Assembly (NCBI GenBank): GCA_024679065.1
Contig: JAGIQG010000009.1
Coordinates: 89,900,001-89,964,000, forward strand
Direction of reading: 5' to 3'
Length of the DNA: 64,000 bases
Source of the DNA: Sphyrna mokarran
Taxonomy: Eukaryota
In this document: piece by piece, positions 25,501 through 42,327 of the stretch
How the letters are laid out: every line of letters starts with the position of its first letter
Position numbering within the stretch: the stretch's first letter is position 1
Position numbers and translations under genes: made by a program
The notes under the pieces: model-generated
What the model saw: only the letters and a program-made list of their open reading frames with translations
Told to the model about the DNA's origin: nothing
The model's database searches: none

Positions 25501-28500
25501 TATCCATACTCTTCATAATCTTATATACCTCTATTAGATCTCCCCTCATTCTGTCTATCCAAAGACAAACAGCCCCAATTTGCCCAATCTTTCCTCATAA
25601 CCCAGTCCTTCCTACCAGGCAGCATCCTGGTAAACCTCCGCACTCTCTCCAGGGTCTCCACGTCCTTCCGGTAGTAAGGTGACCAGAACTGGACACTACT
25701 CCAAATGAGGTCTAACCACTGTTCTATACAACTGCAACATTAGATGCCAGCTCTTGAAATCTATACCTCTTCCTATAAAGGCTACTATACCATACACTTT
25801 CACAACCTTCTCACTTATACTGCCACATTCAGAGACTTGTTCACCTGCACCCCAAGGTCCTTCTGTTTCTATACTGAATAGGTCTACCCTTTACCACAAC
25901 TCCCCCTATATTATTTCTCCCAAAATGCATCACCTTGCATTCATCAGGATTAAATTCCATCAGCCATTTATCTGCCTAAGCTACCAGCCTATATATACCC
26001 TGCTGTATTGCCTGACACTGCACCTCACTATTTGCAAGTCCAGCCACCTTCATGTCATCTGAAAACTTGTTAATCACATACTCCTTCCAAGTCATTTATA
26101 TATTAAAAATAGAAGAGGTCCCAGTACTGAACCCTGCACCACATTAGTGACAGACCTCCAGTTAGAAAGATCTTTCCACTACTATCTTCTATTACCAAGC
26201 CAGTTATCAATCCATCTAGATACCTGTCCTTATATTCCATGAGTCTTAACCTTTTCCACAAACCTACCATGAGGGACTTGTCAAATGCCTTACTGAAATC
26301 CATAGACATTAACAGCTCATCCTTTGACTGTTTGTCACCTCAAAACATTCTACCAGATTTATAAGGCATGACCTCCCCTTAAAGCCATGCTGTGTATCCC
26401 TAATCAGATCACAATGCTCTAGATGTGTATACATAAAGAATCCTCTCCAACAACTTTCCTATCACTGTCAAACTCAGTTATAGTTACCAGGGTTATTCCT
26501 ACTACCCTTTTTAAATAGTACCATGTTTGCTATCCTCCAGTCCTGAGACCTCACCTGTGTCCAAAGAAAAAGATTTGCATCAGAGGCCCAGCAATTTCAC
26601 CTTGTCTCCCTAAGCAACCTAGAATAAATGCCATCAGACCACAGATTTCAGTTTTAATGCTACCTAAAAACCCAACACTCCCTCAGATATTCCTTCAACT
26701 GGTCTACAGCTCCCTCCAAGACAGTACTGGACATCAAACCCCTCTTAGGGAATACTGACAACATTCATTCAGGATCTTCCCCATTCTCAGACTGAGCATA
26801 GTTCTCCTCCTGTCCCCAAGAGGGATTTTTCCTCTAACCATCCTTTTGATCTCGAGTAAAATGTCTCTGCATTTCCTTAATCGTGTCCTCTTTTTGCCCT
26901 TCTAATTCCTTGTTTGAGCTCCCTTCTACTCTATATTCCTCCAATGCTCTCCCTGTTCCCAGTTGCTTAGACTTAACATATGCTTCTTCCTGAAGAAGTC
27001 CTCAATATCCTTATTAATTCACAACTCTAATTCTACCTTTCCTATCCTTCCTTTTAACAGGCACATGTCTTTTCTGCAACCTTTTCAGTTTTCCCTTGAA
27101 AGACTCCCACATGCCAAATGAGGACTTACCCTCAAACAACCTCTCCCAATTAGTATCCACAAGTTCCTGCCAAATCTGACTAGCTAGCCTTCACCCAATT
27201 TAGCACCCTCCCCTTAGGGCACCACTCATCTTTTTCCATTAGTATCCTAGAGTAGACAGAATTGTTAGCTACATGTTCACCTACTGCAACTTCAACCACC
27301 TGAGCTGGCTCATTACACAGAACTAAATCCAGTATAGCCCCCTCTCTAGTCAGGCCAGTTACATACTGGTCTAATGACCCTTCCAGTACACATTTTACAA
27401 ATTCCTTCCTGTCCAAACCCCCATTTCCAGTCCACCCCAGGAAGATTAAAATCTCCCACAACAGCCCTATTCTTTCTGCACCTAAAATGTCTTGCATACA
27501 CCTTCTTCCACTGTCTGTGGGTTGTGGCCTAATAGTACACCCTTAGCATAGTAATTGCTTCTTTCTATTCCTCAACTCCACCCACTGACTCAATTCCTAA
27601 CTCCTTTATTATCTTCCCTCTGCACTACTAATATGCTCCTAACAATGCCATGCCCCATCTCCTAATTCCCTACAGTAAGAACAAAAAATCCCACAAACTG
27701 GAAATAGAGAAAACAGAATGAAAATTCACTTAATTGACCACTCAACACAGCCACTAGCACTTCCAAGTGGATTGCTCCAGAGAACAATGGTAGATGTTTT
27801 GTGCTCAGACATCTGTTTATAGATCTATGCATTAGAAACAAATGAGACAATTTAGGGAGAATTTGTTTTGCCAATTAGCTTAAGAGCACATCCTTGGGAT
27901 GTGGGAGGAAACTTGAGCACCCAGAGAAAACCCACAAGCACAGGGAGAATGCACAAACCACCATAGACAGGTTCTTTGAACAGAATCTTACCTTTAGCAT
28001 TCCTCAGCTTCATAATCACTCCAGCCAGCAGGATGATCAGTCCAATTCCAAATCCCACAGCTCCAACAATAATCTTGTGTTTCTTTGATTCAGTTGTGCT
28101 CCCCACTTCTGTACAAGTGAAAAATTCAGGTGTTAGAACACCAGGTTGCTCTATTGAACTAGATAGCTTTGAGATAGAGCTTGAAGCATTAACATGTGAA
28201 AGGAGCAAGGAGAAAGCTTAAAAAGGTTCCAACTGATATGCTGCAGCACATTGGTATGCTGTGAAGGCCCCATAAGTGTGCCATAAAGTTAAAAATTAAC
28301 ATTAATGTTAATAAAATCTAATTTGTTTTCAGCTGTGGTTGGCATTTCCAAATCCTGCTGAACCTTGTCTCCCACATGTGCTGGTCAGAAATAGGCTACA
28401 CACTGTTTAGGGCCTAACTGACGTAAAAAGATCAGAAGCATGCCTGTGACTTTTCCAGCAGGCACATGCAGTTTGTGTTACAAACATTAAACATTGAGTA

Positions 28501-31500
28501 TCGAGTAGCCCTTGCCTGGCTGACATGCACAGGAGATCCCAGGTTCTTTGGGAATTGGAGATGCCAACCAATTGGAGAAGTCAAAGACAAAGACTTGCAC
28601 AAAAATGGAGGCAAAAGCTGGGCAGAAGTAAAATTCCCAGTAAGGGAAGACAGACCAAAAAGAGAAAGCTTAAGATTTTCTTGGTAAACTTCTTAAAACT
28701 AATGAATTGTATTGAAATGGTGGCATGTGTTTAGAAGTTTTAGGGATAAAAGGCTTGAGGGTAGTTCAGTTGGAGAAATTTAAAATACAAAGGTGTGCAG
28801 TGAGAAAGCAGGATAAATGATAGTCTATTGCAAATAAAGCAAGAAAACCAAGTTTGTCACATGGTTTCTAATATGTAGGATTCTTTCTACAAGATGTGAC
28901 ATCTATAAAAAAGGAGACTGCTTGAGCTAATGTTGAGTAAAGTCTGGTGTGAGTGTTAGCATCTGAAGACCACTATTGGACTTGCTCATCCTCCAGAAGA
29001 ATAATGTGCAGATTTGGGAAAGATGATACAACAGAAAAGACTAAGTGATTAGAAGCACACCAAAATTGAACAGGTAGAAAACCCAAAGATTAGGGTAAAA
29101 ATGGACAGACCACAGAACCCTTGACAAGGCTCCTCACTGGAGAAAATTTACAGCAAGGCACAGCAAATTACAAAGTGATGCCAGATAGTGGTTCCTCAGG
29201 GATCTGTGCTGAGGCTGTCCTTTGTTCACTGTTTACAGCAATAACTGCTAGAACTGGCAGATTAGCCTGAAATGTAAACTATTTCCCACCCCAGATTCTG
29301 ACACCTGCTCAGTGTTTAGAATTTTGCTTCATGTTGTACTACATAATGTTTCTTACCCAAATCTGTGTCCATGGGTTCATTCAGGCTGCTGTGTTCCACA
29401 CGACAGGTATATTTATCTCCAGACACAGGTTGATATTGGAGGAGATCCTGAACCTGATAGGTCCAGTCACCATCTGATAACAGGGCAGTGTTGATGACAC
29501 CATTAGGAACTGGCACTCCATTTTTCAACCATGTGACCTCAATCTCAGGAGGGTAAAATCCAGTAACATGACACAAGAGCAAGGCCAACTGTCCAGAATG
29601 TGGTGTTGTTTTAGGTTGGACAGTGACTGTTGGTTTGACTGGAATAGAAACAGAAGAATTAATTTCAAAATAAACATAGCATATGGTAGTAAGTCTGATT
29701 TTCCTCTAGCCTGATTGTAGAGTTTGGGAAGACCTTCTGTCAAGTCCTCTTCTACAAGTCCTGGCCTTCAATCAGGTAAGACTGGCAGGTCTTGCAAGTT
29801 GTGGATTTGGAAACATACATGGAGTGGGAACATCTTTACAAGTGGTGGCTTCAGTAAGATTCATGAAAGTGAAATGAGATGAGATACCAGGCCTCCTATT
29901 GGTCCATTTGTCATCATGCCAAATGGCTTGAACTGATTAAGAATCTGTGTAAACTGGAAATGGGACTAGGTGACACCTGAAACAGGTACCAAAGCATAAA
30001 TTTGATATTCAAGTAACTGGCTGCACCACAAAATATCAGTGGCTGGGCACTAGTTCATACTTTTCAGTAAAAGGTCAAATGTAATGATGCCTAATGGTAC
30101 ATTGAACTTGATCAATGTTTAAGGGGAAAAACATGAGTGACCAAGATCCTAGATTTAGGCAAGACTAACTTCAATTAGAGACAAACTGGGCAAGAGTAGG
30201 TCTGGAGAAGTGTTCAAAAAGGTAGATATAAAATCAGTATATGCCAAGAGGCAAGAGCTCTATTTGCCAAAGACAAGCATGGATAACACCACAAAACTAG
30301 TTTAAAAATACACAAAACACTGGATGCTGGAATTTGAAAACAATGCTGAAAATTCATCAGATCTGGCACAGGTGTGGCTATGTGTACCCACATGGGCCCC
30401 TATTATACCTGCCCTTTTGCTTGTGGAGCATTTATTCCAGTTCTACTCAGGCACACTAGTACAACTGCTTCATTTTCATCTGGACTTCAAAAAAATTTAA
30501 TTTTGCTTCCTCACTTTCATGTGGTCCATCTGACTTGCCTTCCTTAATTTCCAGTGAAATACTGACCACTGACTCCCACAGCCAACATGACTACAGCTCA
30601 TACTATTCCCATGTAACTGCAGAAGGTGAAACACCTGCCCTTTTGCCTCCTCAGCACTTAAGGATTTAACATTTGATTGAGCAACATTTTACTTGCACTT
30701 TCTACAATTTAGTTGACAGTATTTGGTGTTCCCAATGTGGGAGCTACACTGGGGAGACTAAACAGATGGAACTGCTCAGTCTATAACCTTCCTGTTGTTT
30801 GTCATTTTAACTCTGCCTCTTACCTCATGCAGACATGTCTGTTCTTGGCCTATGTTCCAGTGAAGCCTGGAACAAGCTGGGAAAGCAGCAACTCTGCTTT
30901 TAGTTGGGCACTGCAGCCTTGGAGCTTACATTTGAGATGGACTTCAGTTTTAAAATCCTTAAATCTCATGTCTCCCCCAGCCATCTGTCTTTTGTTCTCA
31001 AGTTGCTAATTTGCTGCCATGTCTTATAACTCTCCCCTCTAGTTCTGGTGAAGGGCTGAAAGTCTCTCCAAATGTTGCTAAGTGTTGAGTTTAGTTTAAA
31101 AGCAAAGTAGCCAAGAGCATAAAGAAACATCAAAATTCAAGTGTTTCCAATTGGAACTACCCATGTCTAATATGGAAACAGAGGTACCCCTGTGCCCAAA
31201 AAGCTGGACAAATCCAACCCATTACTGCCCATTCTGTATTATTGGGAAAATAGAAAGTATTGTCAACAAGCACTTATCTCAACAATAATCTGCTCACTGC
31301 ACCCAGTTTGGGTTCTGAGGGGGAAGGAAGGCAAGACAGACTGCTTTTGGTAGAATTGGTTTATTGTATCTAAACCTCATTTTTCATCTGTGGGCAAAAT
31401 CATTGTGCACTAGATTAGCACAAAACATGCAGTGCACAATTACACATTAGAAATATGATTTATACTACCAAGGACTAAACTGGAAGCTCAACTGGCAGAC

Positions 31501-34500: not shown

Positions 34501-37500
34501 TGCCAGAATGGTCCTTCAGCCCACCAACTCTGCACTGACCATACCCACACCAGCTATGCAGTTCCCAGTGCATGCATTGTGCCAGATGGCTGGTGGTATT
34601 TCAAGTGCTCATCCAAAAAATAGTATTAGGGATACAAGGTCACTGTCCCAATGCTGATGCAGGATTCTGGTCTAAGCTCCACTGCCCCATTCCCTGCCAG
34701 CATCCGGAGTTTGTAATCCCAGACTGCCTAGTGTAGCATTCTCAGTGATTGGAACCTAGACCTGTTACACCAACCCCCAAGTTACAGGGCCCCACATTGA
34801 GGCCTGGGGTTCTAGTCAGTGGACCTGGGCACCAGTGTGGAAGTCAGAAATAGGAGTCAGACTTGTACCAGAGTAGCATCAATGTACAGTGAGTGGTGTG
34901 ACCCCACACCTATTTAAGGGCCTTTGTCATCCTGCCTGCTCCATTTTTGGCTTCCTTGGCCTCCACATTCTCCTGCCCTGCCCTTCTCAAGAGGTGATGT
35001 TTGGTTATCCTCCTAGAAGTCTCCTTGCTGCTGTGCCAGGTTGTGGCATTCAGCAGACCATGATGCAGGAGATCCTGGGGACTGTACTGGAGGGTACTAC
35101 CAGAGCAGCCTAGACAGCAGAATAGCAGCTTGTTATTGGGAGTTATGACATTGAAGAGGAAAGGACCTTTGTCCTGGACTGCTTTCTAATCCCCACTACC
35201 AAAAGATTTCACAGCTTTTGTAGTATGCTACAGCAACCACTTCAGCTTCAATTTTCCTAACACATCCCTGGTAATACATGACCTGATATTGACTATGAAA
35301 TAATGAGACTATAAAAGCAGTTCCCTGGAAATCTGCTAGTTTTGATGGTCAAGTATTCAGAATCCCAACACTGCAGAAGTTGACCCATCAACTCTGAACT
35401 GACTGAAAGCCTGCCCAATTCCCATAACCCTGCAGATTTACCATGGCTAATCCACCTAACATACATATTTTTGTACTATGGGAGGAAACTGGAGCAAACC
35501 CCACACATGGGGAGAACTCTACACTTTCATCCAAGGCCAGAATCAAACCTGGGTCCCAGGCATTGAGGTAAAAGTGCTAACCACTGTAGCAAAGCTCATC
35601 TCTGCTTCACATTCCTCATATACAACTGGAACAAGGAGCCCAAATAACCATCAGTTCCAGAATTGAGACTGTGCACTGGTGCTGTTCATATTCCTCATGT
35701 GGCCCTAATGGGACTGGTGTCTCCTGAAACAGTCTGACAGGAGCCAGTGCCTCAAGGCACAGGACTACACTGAAGATGGAGTGAGACTATTTGGGTAAGA
35801 GTTTACTGAGCATTCCTCCCACACAGCTGTACCTGCCTCTGCTTACAGAGAAATGCCAGTTATTCCTGGAAAGAAACTCAGGCTTCAGGTATTCTTCACC
35901 GTGTTGTATTTTTAACCTCACTGACTAGAGGAAAACCCTCAGCAGGAGGGGGGAGTAGAATTGCTGCCATTCTGTGTCCAGATGTGTTAAGGGGGGGAGG
36001 AGGGTGGGTGATTTTGCCCAGAGCGGGATTCAGGAAGCTCAGCCCCTCAGAGACAGGGAGCTCCCAGAGAGAGAGTCCCGGGGACTCAGCAGCTCCGGGC
36101 ACAGGACGATCCCAGTACAGGCCGCTGGTGACATTTAATCCCCCCCCCCCCGGGGCTCTCACCTCTCCGGGACAGAACACTTTCGTCGATGGGAACGTTG
36201 GTTTCACACACGGTGATGCCCTCCTGGTACCGCGCTTCCGCCCGATCATTCCATGTCTTCACATTCCCCTCCATCCCGCTCTTCACCGCGATGTACTTCC
36301 TCTGGTTAAAGTCGAAATACGCGACCAGCTCTTGATCATAGACATACTCCTCAATATAGGTCCAGCTCCTGGTGTCGTTAAAATCACATCCGTGAATGTA
36401 GTTAAAGACATGAGCCCCTGTGAGAGAGAGACTGAGTTACTGTCTGACAGAGAGAGAGAGAGCCCAGAGACCCGGGAAAGGGGGATCTTCCCCACCCACC
36501 CAGTCCCATCACAACATGGGGAAGGGGTGCAGCTCTCAGACCCCCCCAAACTCCGGGAAAACCCCACATTGTCTCAATAATCTCCAGGGAATCACACCCT
36601 GACCCTGTGTAGGGACAAAGATCTGGGCACGCGGTTAAAATCCAACAGGTTTAACTTGTGTTGATGTCTTATTGTATCCACCCCAATCCAACACCGACAC
36701 CTCCGCCTTGTGTAGAGAGGGTCAGGATAGCTGTGGGGTTACCCCTTACCCCAGAGATTCAACATACTGGAAGTTATCCCCAGGAATGGGATTAATAACC
36801 CATGGGAATTCAAAGTGACAGACACTAAACCAGCTGTTATTTCCCAAAGACAGGAAGATTGAAACTGATCCGAAGGCAGTCCCAATGAAGGCAGAGTGTT
36901 AGAGGATGGTGGTCAAAAAGATAAACTGTCCATAATTCCAGATAAACATATTGGCTCTCCCTTTAGGCTGCTGACACTGTCAGGAGGTGGTAGAGGACAC
37001 ACTCAGTTATGCTGGCATGGTCAGATAAGAGAAAGATGAGCACTAGTTCAGCACTCAACATGTGCAGAGACAAGGGGGGGGAAGAGATTAAATTTCTGAC
37101 TTGGATCATGGAAGTCTGCACATTCCATCCGCTCGAGTTTCCTCCCACAGGATGAAGGATGCATTCATTAGGGTTCTCAGTGTACTTGAACAGTGTGGCA
37201 ACCAGGGGGATTGATATTAAAAATAAAAATCAAGGGAGCAGGAACTGGATCTTGGATGAAACAAGCTCAGAGCAAAGAAGTGGTAGGATTAAAGATCAGA
37301 GCAAAAGAATGGGTGAGGAGCAGGAAAAAGTCACTGCTCAATATGGAGTTTCTGAACAGCAAGGAAAAACTAATGGAGACAGTGGCTAATGGAATTGTAT
37401 CTGCTGCTCAGCTGTAGCATAGGGCCCCAAAAGCAGTTAGAGTTTAAACCAATTCTACTGTAGAGAATTTGCAAAAATTGTTAAAATCTGAAACTAACCA

Positions 37501-40500: not shown

Positions 40501-41069
40501 AGCATCTGGAACTCACCAGCTGAAGAGGCAGTAGAAACAGGAGTTAACATTTTAATCATCACTTAGAGCAACAGATCAAGTGCTAGAAATGGGATTAGAA
40601 TACATAGTAAAGAAAATGTTAAAATCTCAGCAAGTCTAATAGTACTTAGTTCAAACAGAGCCAGTATTGAGTAGAAGACCCTTCATTCAGACTCAACGTT
40701 GGCTTTGTCTCTCCAGAAACTCAGACTTGCTGAGGTTTTCCAGTATTTTCCGTTTCAGATGCTAACATCTACAGTATTTTAATGGATAGTCGTTTGATGG
40801 CCGGCACAGACACGATGGGCCGAATGATTTTTTCTCTATAACACCGAATCTTCACTGCGTGGCTGATCAGTTTCATTTACAAACTCCCCAGTTATGCCTC
40901 ACACTTAAACCTAAAGACATGAAGATAACTATTTTACTCCTGTCCGCTCCTTAACTGGGATCTTACCGGCTCCGCTCTCTCTCTCTCCATTGAAGATGAA
41001 CAGGCTCCAGATGAGGAGGGAGATCCGGATCCAGAGGGATCGGGAGCCGCTCACTGTAAACAAACACAT
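10515..41069 (-). CDS. mhc2b: MHC class II beta chain gene (DAB-like), six coding exons, 270 aa: join(complement 41069-40967, 36417-36163, 29638-29357, 28108-27992, 22566-22537, 10540-10515)
   Basis: Exons assembled by hand. Lengths 103+255+282+117+30+26 = 813 nt form one open frame; every intron is GT..AG and phase 1. Domain order is leader, beta1, beta2 (C1-set Ig), connecting peptide/TM, then two cytoplasmic exons ending RLMGPAVS*. Introns are 4549, 6524, 1248, 5425 and 11996 bp. Confidence 0.95.
12155..12715 (-). mobile_element. Old 5'-truncated CR1 (same family as 8470-9480)
   Basis: Shared tail AGGTTTACAGCATGGAAACAGGCCCT; ORF 12546-12761 is RT C-terminus-like. Confidence 0.8.
13103..16690 (-). 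mobile_element. Intermediate-age CR1 LINE (EN+RT) carrying a SINE (about 13458-13830) and a younger CR1 (15802-16490)
   Basis: ORFs 14225-14683, 14786-15112 and 15562-15798 are RT/EN. Sequence resumes collinearly at 16491. Confidence 0.9.
15802..16490 (+). mobile_element. Young 5'-truncated CR1 with ATTAC target-site duplication
   Basis: ATTAC at 15797-15801 and 16491-16495; TGTTCTA tail; ORF 15810-16214. Confidence 0.93.
16964..18614 (-). mobile_element. Young CR1 LINE with uninterrupted 455-aa RT ORF
   Basis: ORF 17051-18418 with full RT motifs including FADD; TAGAACA tail. Confidence 0.97.
19850..20815 (+). mobile_element. Degraded Rex1/Babar-type LINE (related pieces at about 38690-39500 on - and 54975-55180 on +)
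   Basis: DYSSAF...KLISKL..LG.STSLCN.ILNFL-like RT sequence; shared 3' tail (TACACCYTAGCTATKACT...TTTCCTTCTCTATGAA) at about 20720 and 55070. Confidence 0.65.
22537..22566 (-). CDS. mhc2b: MHC IIB exon 5, 30-nt cytoplasmic micro-exon ([10 protein letters not shown])
   Basis: Strong acceptor TTTTTTTCTTTCAG and perfect donor GTGAGT. Phase 1-1 keeps the frame between exons 4 and 6. Confidence 0.88.
24640..25065 (-). mobile_element. V-SINE variant, paralogous to about 13458-13830 (third fragment at about 27855-27972)
   Basis: V-domain core (GGAGTTTGCACATTCTCCC...GGTTTTCTCCGGGTGCTCCAGTTTCC) plus shared flanking blocks. Confidence 0.75.
25260..27660 (-). mobile_element. Old CR1 LINE (EN+RT remnants) in intron 4
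   Basis: ORFs 26103-26309 (DFSKAFDK) and 27180-27497 ([15 protein letters not shown]). Confidence 0.85.
27992..28108 (-). CDS. mhc2b: MHC IIB exon 4, connecting peptide/transmembrane/start of cytoplasmic tail
   Basis: [39 protein letters not shown], with the class II beta GxxGxxxGxxxxxxG TM pattern and RNxK (equivalent to the MARCH-ubiquitinated lysine). CAG/GTAAG boundaries. Confidence 0.95.
29357..29638 (-). CDS. mhc2b: MHC IIB exon 3, beta2 C1-set Ig domain
   Basis: 282 bp (canonical length). Translates [10 protein letters not shown]...[21 protein letters not shown]...DGDWTYQ...[13 protein letters not shown] acceptor at 29639-29641, GTAAG donor at 29356. Confidence 0.97.
30310..31090 (+). 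mobile_element. Degraded Penelope-like element in intron 2
   Basis: VAMCTHMGP-like RT motif, SQCG..YTGETK GIY-YIG-like motif, PVVCHFN, and partially inverted termini. Confidence 0.65.
32690..32900 (+). mobile_element. Myb/SANT-like ORF remnant of a PIF/Harbinger transposon (element probably extends to about 35300)
   Basis: [10 protein letters not shown]...W.AVA...QCCRKIND resembles the Harbinger Myb-like helix pattern LLxAVE...W..VA...QCRKKxND. Confidence 0.55.
36163..36417 (-). CDS. mhc2b: MHC IIB exon 2, beta1 peptide-binding domain ([85 protein letters not shown])
   Basis: Pyrimidine-rich CAG acceptor at 36418-36420 and GTGAG donor at 36162. Two domain cysteines, N-glycan sequon NDT after the first Cys, WN motif (beta-W61 equivalent) and CxxN (beta-N82). 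Confidence 0.95.
37854..38008. mobile_element. Short palindromic Penelope-terminus element in intron 1, CCTGCAA target-site duplication
   Basis: Inverted arms about 37855-37888 and 37897-37934; CCTGCAA at 37847-37853 and 38009-38015. Confidence 0.75.
40967..41069 (-). CDS. mhc2b: MHC IIB exon 1, signal peptide [34 protein letters not shown]
   Basis: ATG at 41069, hydrophobic core, donor G|GTAAGA at 40966, phase 1. Lies in a CpG-rich patch just downstream of a TATTTAAA box. Confidence 0.9.
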
Positions 41070-41122
41070 TTCACCCACAGCGGCTCCGACACAAACTGAA
41101 CCCGGAATGAACCCGACAGGGC

Positions 41123-41481
41123 TTTAAATACAGATACTGACCAATCACAACGGAGCATAAAGATTGACCAGTCACATACCAACACACTGACCAATGAGTA
41201 GCAGGAAAATCATCCAATCAAATCCATACATCCGGGGAACAGGGACCAATCAGCACCAAGAACTCTAGTAGTGGAACAGAGGAGCCAATCAGAACTGGGA
41301 ATGTGTAACCAATCAGAAATGAGATGGCTGACAGTAACAAGCCAATCAGAGAGGAGTATGAGTAGTCACAGGTCCCTGTTTGATACGGACCAATCAAATC
41401 ATAGAAAGGTTCTGCTCTTAAACCCAATAGACCAATCAAAACCAGCAGGACCGCGACTCTGCAAATAAATAAACCAATCAG
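41123..41481 (-). promoter_or_regulatory. TATA-like box (TATTTAAA, 41130-41123) plus array of 11 co-oriented CCAAT/Y-like boxes
   Basis: CCAAT on the + strand starts at 41141, 41191, 41214, 41246, 41285, 41309, 41342, 41390, 41424, 41432 and 41474, mostly as RRCCAATCA. Confidence 0.8.
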
Positions 41482-41515
41482 AGACGGGTAACAGCAATCC
41501 TCATCTGTTGCCATG
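41472..41515 (-). promoter_or_regulatory. MHC class II X box (CATGGCAACAGATG, 41515-41502) and Y box (CTGATTGGTT, 41481-41472), 20-bp spacer
   Basis: Close match to the mammalian class II X1 box (CCTAGCAACAGATG; RFX site) and Y box (NF-Y site) with the canonical 19-20 bp spacing. No convincing S box at the expected distance. Confidence 0.85.
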
Positions 41516-42327
41516 CAGAATTGGGTGATTTATTTAAACTTCTGTGTGGACAGGTCAGTGGGAGACGGCAATATCCTCGCCATAGGAAGCTGCGGTTGGA
41601 GGGATAAATAATCAGAGGGATTCATTCATTTAAAGTTAGGCCCCATTGAAGTGTGTGCTCCTGTACAGTGGTTAGTACACTGAAAGCTGTGACTCCTCTT
41701 CAGTGTTAGTATCTGAGAATTCTTCTGGGCTGGAAAAACTCAAGTCTTGGCTGGAGGATGCTCTGGGTTGGTTCCCACATGTGCTTTCAAAAGAAAGGAG
41801 ATTTCAGGGATCTTAAGAAGCAGGAGGTATAACTCACATAAGTGTACTGGATTCTCACTTAGATTATCACCACTCGTTCACAGTCGACACAGGAGTGGTC
41901 AATGTCTTCCCTGACCAGCTGGAGGGCTCTTTCCTCAAAGTTAGTTGGGAATTATATCCTTGGCATTCCTCTGTCTGGGACAGATGGAGTGAGTGTCAAA
42001 GGTATGTACGTTAGGTCAGATTAGCTATGGTAAAGTATTCAGGGTAATGGAGATAGGGTAGAGAGCTTGAGTAGGACTTACAGCCCGTAGGTGCAAATTT
42101 AATGGGCCAGATGGCCTCTTTCTGTACTGTAGGGATTCTCTGATTCTGTGATACACAGGCAATGTGTTAGGGCAGTTGGTGGCGTGCCATGTGTGGATGG
42201 AATTTGGGACAGGGAGGTGATGAAATACAGGGGAGATTAAAGTGTATGTGAGAGAGTGAGTGATGGTGTCCTTTGAACTGGCAGTAAGTGAGACCTGTGG
42301 ATAAGTAATGGATGTGTGTGTGTGTAT

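What the first reader, a model, noticed from the sequence alone, without database searches (positions are those of the whole stretch)
41123..41515. MHC class II promoter with a displaced X-Y module and an 11-copy CCAAT array
Seen: X box CATGGCAACAGATG and Y box CTGATTGGTT 20 bp apart, then ten more co-oriented CCAAT boxes (plus a CCAGT variant at 41168) down to TATTTAAA 54 bp before the ATG. The spacers are unrelated in sequence, so this is not a simple minisatellite. Several spacings are near helical multiples (32, 33, 42, 42 bp). I saw an X partner only at the most distal Y box, and no S box at the canonical position. Known: in mammals the S-X-Y enhanceosome (RFX, CREB, NF-Y, CIITA) has one Y box within about 100-150 bp of the start site. 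Inference: a multi-NF-Y platform that keeps about 350 bp nucleosome-free, or relays a distal CIITA enhanceosome to the core promoter. This would be a different class II regulatory architecture in cartilaginous fish.
Basis: partly seen in the sequence, partly recalled or inferred. Interest (0 to 1): 0.72.

Follow-up and report, generated by a model that had tools for sequence, protein, structure and literature searches.

The report
Shark MHC-II beta CCAAT-array promoter
The promoter of this shark immune gene (MHC class II beta) carries a chain of eleven CCAAT boxes, likely built by old tandem duplications, that puts its conserved immune control element about 380 bases from the likely start, far more than in mammals, and the chain likely keeps the DNA open so the element can still act.

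Summary
On the minus strand an X box and a Y box lie 20 bp apart. Ten more co-oriented CCAAT boxes follow, then a TATA-like box and the leader exon of a class II beta gene with open exons 1-4. Chance is excluded.

Two details fail. The spacers are faintly related (permutation p about 3e-4), which points to decayed tandem duplication. Helical phasing is not supported (p=0.18).

The array is specific to beta genes. All three beta paralogs have it (11, 7 and 6 boxes); the three alpha genes have one Y box at about the mammalian distance. Homologous pieces occur in four other organisms. The TATA box, five proximal box positions and an X box are kept in all three paralogs. Distal boxes come and go, and the Y partner of X is mutated in two of three.

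Most likely it is a redundant multi-NF-Y platform linking a displaced RFX/CIITA module to a TATA-fixed start; this is untested. Decayed CCAAT arrays also occur at two other probable promoters in this genome.

The parts
41502..41515 (-). X box (RFX-type) CATGGCAACAGATG, running into an X2-like TGAGGAT
   Evidence: Sequence; one of 14 genome-wide hits to a strict X-N19-Y pattern, 8 of them in this MHC region, control 3; an X box is kept in both paralogs
41472..41481 (-). Y box CTGATTGGTT, 20 bp from X
   Evidence: the paralogs have CTGACTGG at 20 bp (B3) and CTGGTTGG at 29 bp (B2)
41285..41436 (-). Distal, labile part of the array: boxes at 41285, 41309, 41342, 41390, 41424, 41432
   Evidence: B2 lacks 41424/41432 and has point changes at 41285 and 41342; B3 lacks five boxes; pieces are homologous in organisms F, J and L
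41342..41367 (-). Old duplicate of the Y-box unit
   Evidence: The B3 Y unit matches this unit at 11 of 16 and the distal Y unit at 12 of 16 positions outside the extended core (p 6e-4 and 9e-5); its left flank matches 11 of 12
41372..41387 (-). Possible decayed X-box remnant
   Evidence: Weak: alignment p=0.06
41141..41250 (-). Proximal conserved part: five box positions (41141, 41168, 41191, 41214, 41246), spaced 27, 23, 23, 32 bp
   Evidence: Same positions in all three paralogs; 41168 is CCAGT only here and reads CCAAT in B2, B3 and contigs of all four other organisms
41123..41130 (-). TATA-like box TATTTAAA
   Evidence: Identical in three paralogs
41070..41097 (-). Minimum 5' UTR; a start near 41100 is inferred from the TATA position
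   Evidence: A contig of a probable RNA run of organism G covers up to 41097; the start site is not mapped
40967..41069 (-). Exon 1 coding part (leader peptide)
   Evidence: Contigs of two probable RNA runs continue from 40966 into exon-2 sequence; GT donor
36163..36417 (-). Exon 2, beta-1 domain
   Evidence: Pfam MHC_II_beta E 4.7e-4, 20.8 bits against a cut-off of 20.9; best PDB hits are class II beta chains
29357..29638 (-). Exon 3, beta-2 C1-set domain
   Evidence: Pfam C1-set E 9e-25
27992..28108 (-). Exon 4, connecting peptide and transmembrane segment
   Evidence: Open frame with AG/GT borders
41531..41538 (+). A/T-rich TATTTAAA, pointing away from the gene, at the position where an S box would be
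   Evidence: kept in B3, not in B2

Best explanation
This is the promoter of a shark MHC class II beta gene in which a chain of CCAAT boxes, likely made by old tandem duplications of the Y-box unit, lies between an intact X-Y module and a TATA-like box, and it likely works as a redundant multi-NF-Y platform that keeps the stretch open so that a displaced RFX/CIITA complex can still activate a TATA-fixed start. SHOWN: the anatomy; its presence at all three beta genes and none of three alpha genes; faint relatedness of the units; constancy of the TATA box, five proximal box positions and an X box; variable distal copy number. INFERRED: NF-Y binds several boxes at once (all neighbours but one pair are 23 bp or more apart); RFX binds X and recruits CIITA, with a nearby box making up for a weak Y; the NF-Y chain extends nucleosome depletion to the core promoter; the TATA box, not the position of the X-Y module, sets the start.
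For: 1) Non-random and NF-Y-like: 10 of 11 boxes have the extended consensus, against 15 of 105 elsewhere. 2) Cores change less than spacers between B1 and B2: 4 of 50 against 54 of 263, Fisher p=0.045. 3) In contigs of four other organisms (four studies), 30 of the 31 listed differences inside the array avoid the cores, and the 31st restores CCAAT at 41168; P(0 of 30) is about 0.003 (only 40 of 100 differences were listed). 4) One contig of organism J carries both the proximal part and the distal part with the X-Y position, with 181 against 197 letters between, so the displacement is shared across species. 5) Duplication origin. 6) In human cells, moving S-Y by 80 or 150 bp of unrelated DNA leaves the start under a nucleosome and lowers induction, and human class II genes lack typical TATA-defined core promoters (PMC2677874). 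The shark beta genes are displaced further (TATA to X 379, 353, 233 bp), and the gap holds CCAAT boxes and a TATA box. 7) Double CCAAT sites bound by NF-Y are never closer than 19 bp and peak at 24-28, 35-37 and 43 bp, and RFX5 is found on such arrays (PMC4889920). 8) Six ATG triplets lie between the distal Y and the TATA box, none between the TATA box and the start codon.
Against: No binding, chromatin or reporter data. The core-versus-spacer test is marginal for B2 and not significant for B3 (2 of 35 against 22 of 169, p=0.38). B3, with exons 1-3 open, does without five boxes. The Y partner of X is mutated in two of three paralogs, and B2 has no module at 18-20 bp spacing, whereas CIITA-regulated human genes need both a strong motif and the right spacing (PMC4381081). 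There is no S-like motif. B1 and B3 have identical exon 1, so gene conversion may explain part of the proximal constancy. No neutral flank was laid for the other organisms and their divergence is unknown, so 80-90% identity is not by itself proof of selection. Other decayed CCAAT arrays exist in the genome.
Confidence: 0.55

Rival explanations
1. Only the proximal two to five boxes and the TATA box form an ordinary multi-CCAAT core promoter. The X box acts as a separate near enhancer, like the many distal X-Y modules of the locus. The distal boxes are slowly decaying relics of a minisatellite-like expansion with little function.
For: Distal boxes are lost or mutated in B2 and B3. About 20 distal X-Y modules lie in 514 kb of this region, so such modules need not sit next to a start. 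CCAAT-bearing tandem repeats are abundant in this genome (5850 triple-box matches, control 4970).
Against: Spacers have decayed to 0.35 identity while 11 cores stay perfect. No listed difference hits a distal core in organism F, which covers 41193-41442 (partial list).
Confidence: 0.28
2. The array makes the beta promoter largely constitutive and CIITA-independent, driven by NF-Y. Cell-type restriction of class II then rests on the alpha chain and CD74.
For: Degenerate Y partner in two of three paralogs and no S-like motif. Multi-CCAAT arrays mark many non-immune promoters, such as cell-cycle genes (PMC4889920). The alpha genes keep the one-Y layout.
Against: An X box is kept in all three paralogs, and the segment holding X aligns without gaps in organisms J and L. 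The alpha promoter also lacks the S-like motif.
Confidence: 0.12
3. Transcription starts 50-100 bp downstream of the distal Y as in mammals, so the array lies in a long 5' UTR.
For: In human HLA-DRA the start follows the nucleosome-free region of the S-Y module (PMC2677874). The start site was not mapped here.
Against: Such a UTR would hold up to six upstream ATGs. The TATA-like box and proximal boxes are identical in position in three paralogs.
Confidence: 0.04
4. Assembly artefact or inserted transposon sequence.
For: The region is repeat-rich, and a dispersed repeat-like family with two CCAAT boxes and a TATA box exists.
Against: A short-read contig spans 41141-41640 with one difference (possibly the same sample, so not independent). 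Other organisms hold homologous pieces. The array matches only the two paralogs in a genome search and among all fetched loci.
Confidence: 0.01

Closest known systems
Mammalian MHC class II S-X-Y enhanceosome promoter (HLA-DRA type; RFX, CREB, NF-Y, CIITA)
   Same: X box, X2-like stretch and inverted CCAAT Y box at 20 bp, in the same orientation to the gene. The shark alpha genes have Y 147 bp from the ATG, within the 92-152 bp tabulated for bat (PMC5437515).
   Different: In the beta genes the module lies 233-379 bp from the TATA box (human S-Y is 50-100 bp from the start, PMC2677874). It is followed by 6-10 further boxes and a TATA-like box, has no S-like motif, and Y is degenerate in two of three paralogs.
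Multi-CCAAT NF-Y platforms (cell-cycle promoters; double-CCAAT modules co-bound by FOS, Sp1/2, RFX5, IRF3, PBX3; PMC4889920)
   Same: Co-oriented boxes 23-48 bp apart with the extended NF-Y consensus.
   Different: Those modules are described mostly as pairs; here there are 6-11 boxes, joined to a class II X box.
CCAAT tandem repeats in LTRs (LTR12/ERV9, ERV1; PMC4889920 passages) and CCAAT minisatellites of this genome
   Same: Origin by tandem duplication of a CCAAT-bearing unit.
   Different: Spacers have decayed to 0.35 identity against 0.57-1.0 in three minisatellites measured; no dispersed copies found.
Short motif duplications in cetacean class II promoters (PMC6155461)
   Same: Local duplication of promoter motifs in class II genes.
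   Different: Those are 11-22 bp duplications of other motifs; the passages read report no multiplication of the Y box.
Distal S'-Y' enhancer of HLA-DRA (PMC2677874)
   Same: X-Y modules away from the start; many such modules occur in this shark locus.
   Different: The beta module is joined to the core promoter by a continuous CCAAT chain rather than lying isolated.

Membership tests
Class II S-X-Y promoter | Lies upstream of a class II gene | tested here: met
   three alpha-1 exons over the Pfam cut-off interleaved with three beta genes; a published nurse shark DBA primer matches the linked alpha at 20 of 22
Class II S-X-Y promoter | X box with a Y box at fixed spacing of about 20 bp | tested here: met
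   20 bp in this gene; B3 20 bp with CCAGT, B2 29 bp with CCAAC
Class II S-X-Y promoter | S (W) box upstream of X | tested here: not met
   The AACCT motif seen 15-16 nt before X in class I and several distal modules is absent in beta and alpha promoters. Calling AACCT 'S-like' rests on a recalled consensus.
Class II S-X-Y promoter | Module within 50-100 bp of the start, single Y | tested here: not met
   Y is about 376 bp from the inferred start; the start site is inferred, not mapped
Class II S-X-Y promoter | RFX/CREB/NF-Y binding and CIITA dependence | not testable with these tools
   Needs ChIP, EMSA or reporter assays
Multi-CCAAT NF-Y platform | Boxes match the extended NF-Y consensus | tested here: met
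   10 of 11; consensus recalled
Multi-CCAAT NF-Y platform | Spacing of at least 19 bp, allowing joint binding | tested here: met
   10 of 11 intervals are 23 bp or more, one is 8 bp; limit from PMC4889920
Multi-CCAAT NF-Y platform | Helical phasing of boxes | tested here: not met
   p=0.18
Multi-CCAAT NF-Y platform | Simultaneous NF-Y occupancy and nucleosome exclusion | not testable with these tools
   No chromatin data
Minisatellite | Head-to-tail units of high identity | tested here: not met
   No TRF call; spacer identity 0.35, above chance
Transposon- or LTR-derived promoter | Dispersed homologous copies | tested here: not met
   Only paralog matches; the genome search skips very common words, and no repeat library was available

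The most novel reading that the evidence does not exclude
Shark class II beta genes have replaced the fixed mammalian enhanceosome-to-start geometry with an expandable NF-Y array. The array carries open chromatin over 230-380 bp to a TATA-fixed start, and its copy number (6, 7, 11) and Y-box quality set the expression level or CIITA dependence of each beta paralog: a repeat-length dial on antigen presentation that the alpha genes lack.
Probability: 0.25. Interest if true: 0.72.

Novelty: new variant of a known kind. Interest (0 to 1): 0.52.

Why it matters
Class II promoters are a standard example of rigid motif spacing, and in human cells displacing the module by 80-150 bp impairs initiation. 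Shark beta genes are a natural displacement by 230-380 bp, with matched alpha genes as internal controls and three paralogs of different array length as a natural dose series. That makes the nucleosome-eviction model of start-site choice, and NF-Y's role in extending open chromatin, directly testable.

The X-Y modules at alpha, beta and class I genes, the many distal ones in the class II region, and the X-box series upstream of CD74 also suggest that RFX/NF-Y-based proximal and long-range control dates back to cartilaginous fish.

Tried and rejected
HELICAL PHASING: rejected.

SIMPLE MINISATELLITE: rejected.

GENOME-WIDE CENSUS of CCAAT arrays: the three-box pattern was swamped by satellites (5850 matches, control 4970), so no promoter census was obtained. 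The TATA-anchored substitutes gave 34 and 64 hits (controls 10 and 14). I examined 30 of the 31 non-beta hits and 30 of the 64 (two of those 30 are the same place). These are pattern hits, not verified promoters, and TATA-less promoters are not covered.

START SITE: contigs of three probable RNA runs end at 41064, 41070 and 41097 and none covers the array. Contigs cannot show a start and the ends differ, so this is not used as evidence.

PROTEIN SEARCH with exon 2 against longer proteins found nothing at E<=1e-10; uninformative.

BETA-2-MICROGLOBULIN promoter: not located; the candidate Ig hit at C1548:92.157 Mb did not look like it (my reading).

B3 EXON 4: not found in the fetched range.

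SINGLE-PAIR spacer alignments were not significant (p 0.06, 0.58, 0.35), and the best off-diagonal 30-mer (22 of 30 at lag 132) was reached by 14 of 300 shuffles. The duplication claim therefore rests on the all-pairs permutation and the B3 comparison.

LITERATURE: six searches found no description of shark class II promoters. 'Promoter' occurs 0 times in the main text of PMC8010645 and PMC9992475 (listing) and PMC10751288. Supplements were not read and most subscription journals are not held, so older nurse shark genomic papers may bear on novelty.

Full report
WHAT IS THERE. Read on the minus strand, 41515-41123 holds an X box (41515-41502), a 20-bp spacer, a Y box (41481-41472), ten more inverted CCAAT boxes plus one CCAGT variant, and TATTTAAA (41130-41123); the ATG is at 41069. 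The cluster is far beyond chance (Poisson 2.4e-11; maximum 6 in 5000 shuffles). 10 of 11 boxes carry the extended flank CCAAT[CG][AG], against 15 of 105 elsewhere in the window (the consensus is recalled).

THE GENE. Four exons (41069-40967, 36417-36163, 29638-29357, 28108-27992) join in one open frame with AG/GT borders: leader, beta-1, C1-set and transmembrane segment. Exon 2 hits Pfam MHC_II_beta just under the cut-off, and its best solved relatives are class II beta chains. Contigs of two probable RNA runs join exon 1 to exon 2. The genome holds three such beta genes and three alpha genes, alternating on the minus strand. A published nurse shark DBA primer matches the neighbouring alpha at 20 of 22 bases; the DBB primer matches this beta at only 13 of 20, DAB at 11 of 20. 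A shark DBA/DBB-type pair is therefore likely.

PARALOGS. The promoter matches only the other two beta genes. Between TATA and X there are 11 perfect boxes over 379 bp in B1 (this gene), 7 over 353 bp in B2 and 6 over 233 bp in B3. The TATA box and the first five box positions are the same in all three, and each keeps an X box. The distal part is labile. B2 lacks two boxes, has point changes in two others, and its X is 29 bp from a CCAAC variant. B3 lacks five boxes and its Y is CCAGT. Cores differ less than spacers for B1/B2 (4 of 50 against 54 of 263, p=0.045) but not significantly for B1/B3 (p=0.38). B1 and B3 share an identical exon 1, so gene conversion may contribute.

INTERNAL CONTROLS. 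All three alpha promoters have one X-Y module and a single CCAAT between X and the ATG, with Y 147 bp from the ATG in A1. A gene with a class I-like leader has an S-like motif, X and Y 320 bp from its ATG, with a few further boxes. CD74 has no CCAAT in the 500 bp above its ATG, but has five X boxes 15-27 kb upstream. The array is therefore a beta-gene trait.

OTHER ORGANISMS. Four runs of four coded organisms from four studies were laid (4 of 24 listed, with 4 more). All four hold pieces of the array at under 90% identity. Organism F covers 41120-41442. J and L cover 41377-41540 without gaps. One J contig carries both ends with 181 letters where this gene has 197. Of the 31 listed differences inside the array, 30 avoid the cores and one restores CCAAT at 41168 (P about 0.003); 60 further differences were not shown. 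Divergence times are unknown and no neutral flank was laid.

ORIGIN. Outside the extended NF-Y motif they are 0.358 identical on average, against 0.261 in shuffles (p=3e-4). The Y unit of B3 resembles both the 41342 unit (11 of 16) and the distal Y unit (12 of 16) of B1 and has the left flank of the former. This is what a 132-bp deletion or duplication between two homologous units would give. Since J and L share the long distal segment, deletion in B3 is the more likely direction (inference). Single-pair alignments were weak. The array is best read as a decayed tandem expansion of the Y-box unit whose cores were kept. Phasing is not supported (p=0.18).

BACKGROUND. CCAAT minisatellites are common in this genome. 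Among 60 examined double-CCAAT/TATA hits other than the beta genes, 7 had five or more co-oriented boxes in 400 bp and 3 had ten or more. Four of the 7 are minisatellites by eye, and two have five scattered boxes. One (L146) is a 12-box array with decayed spacers (0.48) beside a probable first exon, and L093 is a smaller case at a CpG-rich start. Such arrays are therefore uncommon but not unique; this is a sample of pattern hits, not a promoter census.

HOW IT LIKELY WORKS. In human cells the S-Y module lies 50-100 bp from the start and evicts nucleosomes over 200-300 bp. Moving it by 80 or 150 bp masks the start and lowers induction, and these genes lack typical TATA-defined core promoters (PMC2677874; passages and section 19 read). 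NF-Y has been proposed as a pioneer factor, needs at least 19 bp between boxes, and co-occurs with RFX5 on spaced CCAAT arrays (PMC4889920, passages). The shark beta promoter has a displacement that would impair a human gene, and the gap is filled with CCAAT boxes ending at a conserved TATA box. Six ATG triplets lie in the array and none below the TATA box. I infer a redundant NF-Y chain that holds the DNA open from the RFX/CIITA site to a TATA-fixed start (0.55). The main rival is an ordinary proximal CCAAT/TATA core plus a separate X enhancer with relic distal boxes (0.28). A CIITA-independent beta promoter gets 0.12; the degenerate Y boxes favour it, given that CIITA-regulated human genes need motif quality and spacing (PMC4381081, passages). 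None of the binding or chromatin steps is shown.

COMPARISON AND NOVELTY. It likely works like a class II S-X-Y promoter but fails two defining features of the mammalian form (S box; proximal position with a single Y). [quoted passage not shown] Bat modules end 92-152 bp from the gene start (PMC5437515, passages). A review states that teleost class II promoter elements are conserved (PMC6523485, passages). Six searches gave no account of shark class II promoters. PMC8010645 (passages) and PMC10751288 (passages) do not use the word promoter. Supplements and most subscription journals were not seen. The scan's own notes had nothing on this place and one unrelated duplicated NF-Y/RFX cassette elsewhere.

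VERDICT. A real, conserved, beta-specific feature; a new variant of a known kind; function plausible but untested; interest 0.52.

Noticed in passing
G000:C1548:89.885-90.625 Mb (514 kb scanned, with gaps); e.g. L028, L030, L031: A weight-matrix scan found 25 X-Y modules (24 of them at 24 bits or more), reversed control 0. Five are promoters; 20 are distal, in both orientations, several repeated with each alpha-beta duplication unit. Ten strong distal hits in four families were outside the 11-module training set. They resemble mammalian distal S'-Y' enhancers.
   Followed up: partly
L119-L120, G000:C446:72965414, 72968503, 72974479, 72975461, 72978085: Five X boxes 15-27 kb upstream of CD74, four followed by TGAGTCA and a CCAAT in the orientation opposite to a Y box, with an S-like motif upstream. 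The CD74 proximal promoter has no CCAAT but a GGGACTTTCC NF-kB-like site (motif names recalled).
   Followed up: partly
L025, G000:C1548:85799724; also L026, L027, L141: A gene with a class I-like leader has an S-like, X, Y module 320 bp from its ATG. Three more modules nearby have no leader exon that I could see.
   Followed up: partly
G000:C1548:90353452-90389174 and 90589283-90625000: At least 35.7 kb upstream of two alpha genes are 99.95% identical: very recent duplication, conversion or an assembly duplication.
   Followed up: no
L146, G000:C2:1243815: A 12-box decayed CCAAT array beside a probable first exon on the opposite strand; gene not identified.
   Followed up: partly
L093, G000:C738:53942346: CpG-rich probable promoter with decayed tandem CCAAT units directly before TATAAAA.
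   Followed up: no
Many contigs, e.g. L156-L159, L166, L168, L169, L172: A dispersed repeat-like family with two CCAAT boxes about 23 bp apart followed by TATAAAA or TATATAA; no similarity to the beta array.
   Followed up: partly
window 41520-41538 (+): ATTGG followed by TATTTAAA pointing away from the gene, mirroring the layout at the gene's own TATA box. It is not consistently kept in the paralogs.
   Followed up: partly
window 36163-36417 against B2 exon 2 (L018): B1 and B2 exon 2 are 98.5% identical while their promoter regions are about 77% identical. B1 and B3 share an identical exon 1 but differ more in exon 3 (89%): a patchwork suggesting gene conversion.
   Followed up: no
G000:C1:79400-87500: Long 12-bp CCAAT-bearing satellite.
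   Followed up: no
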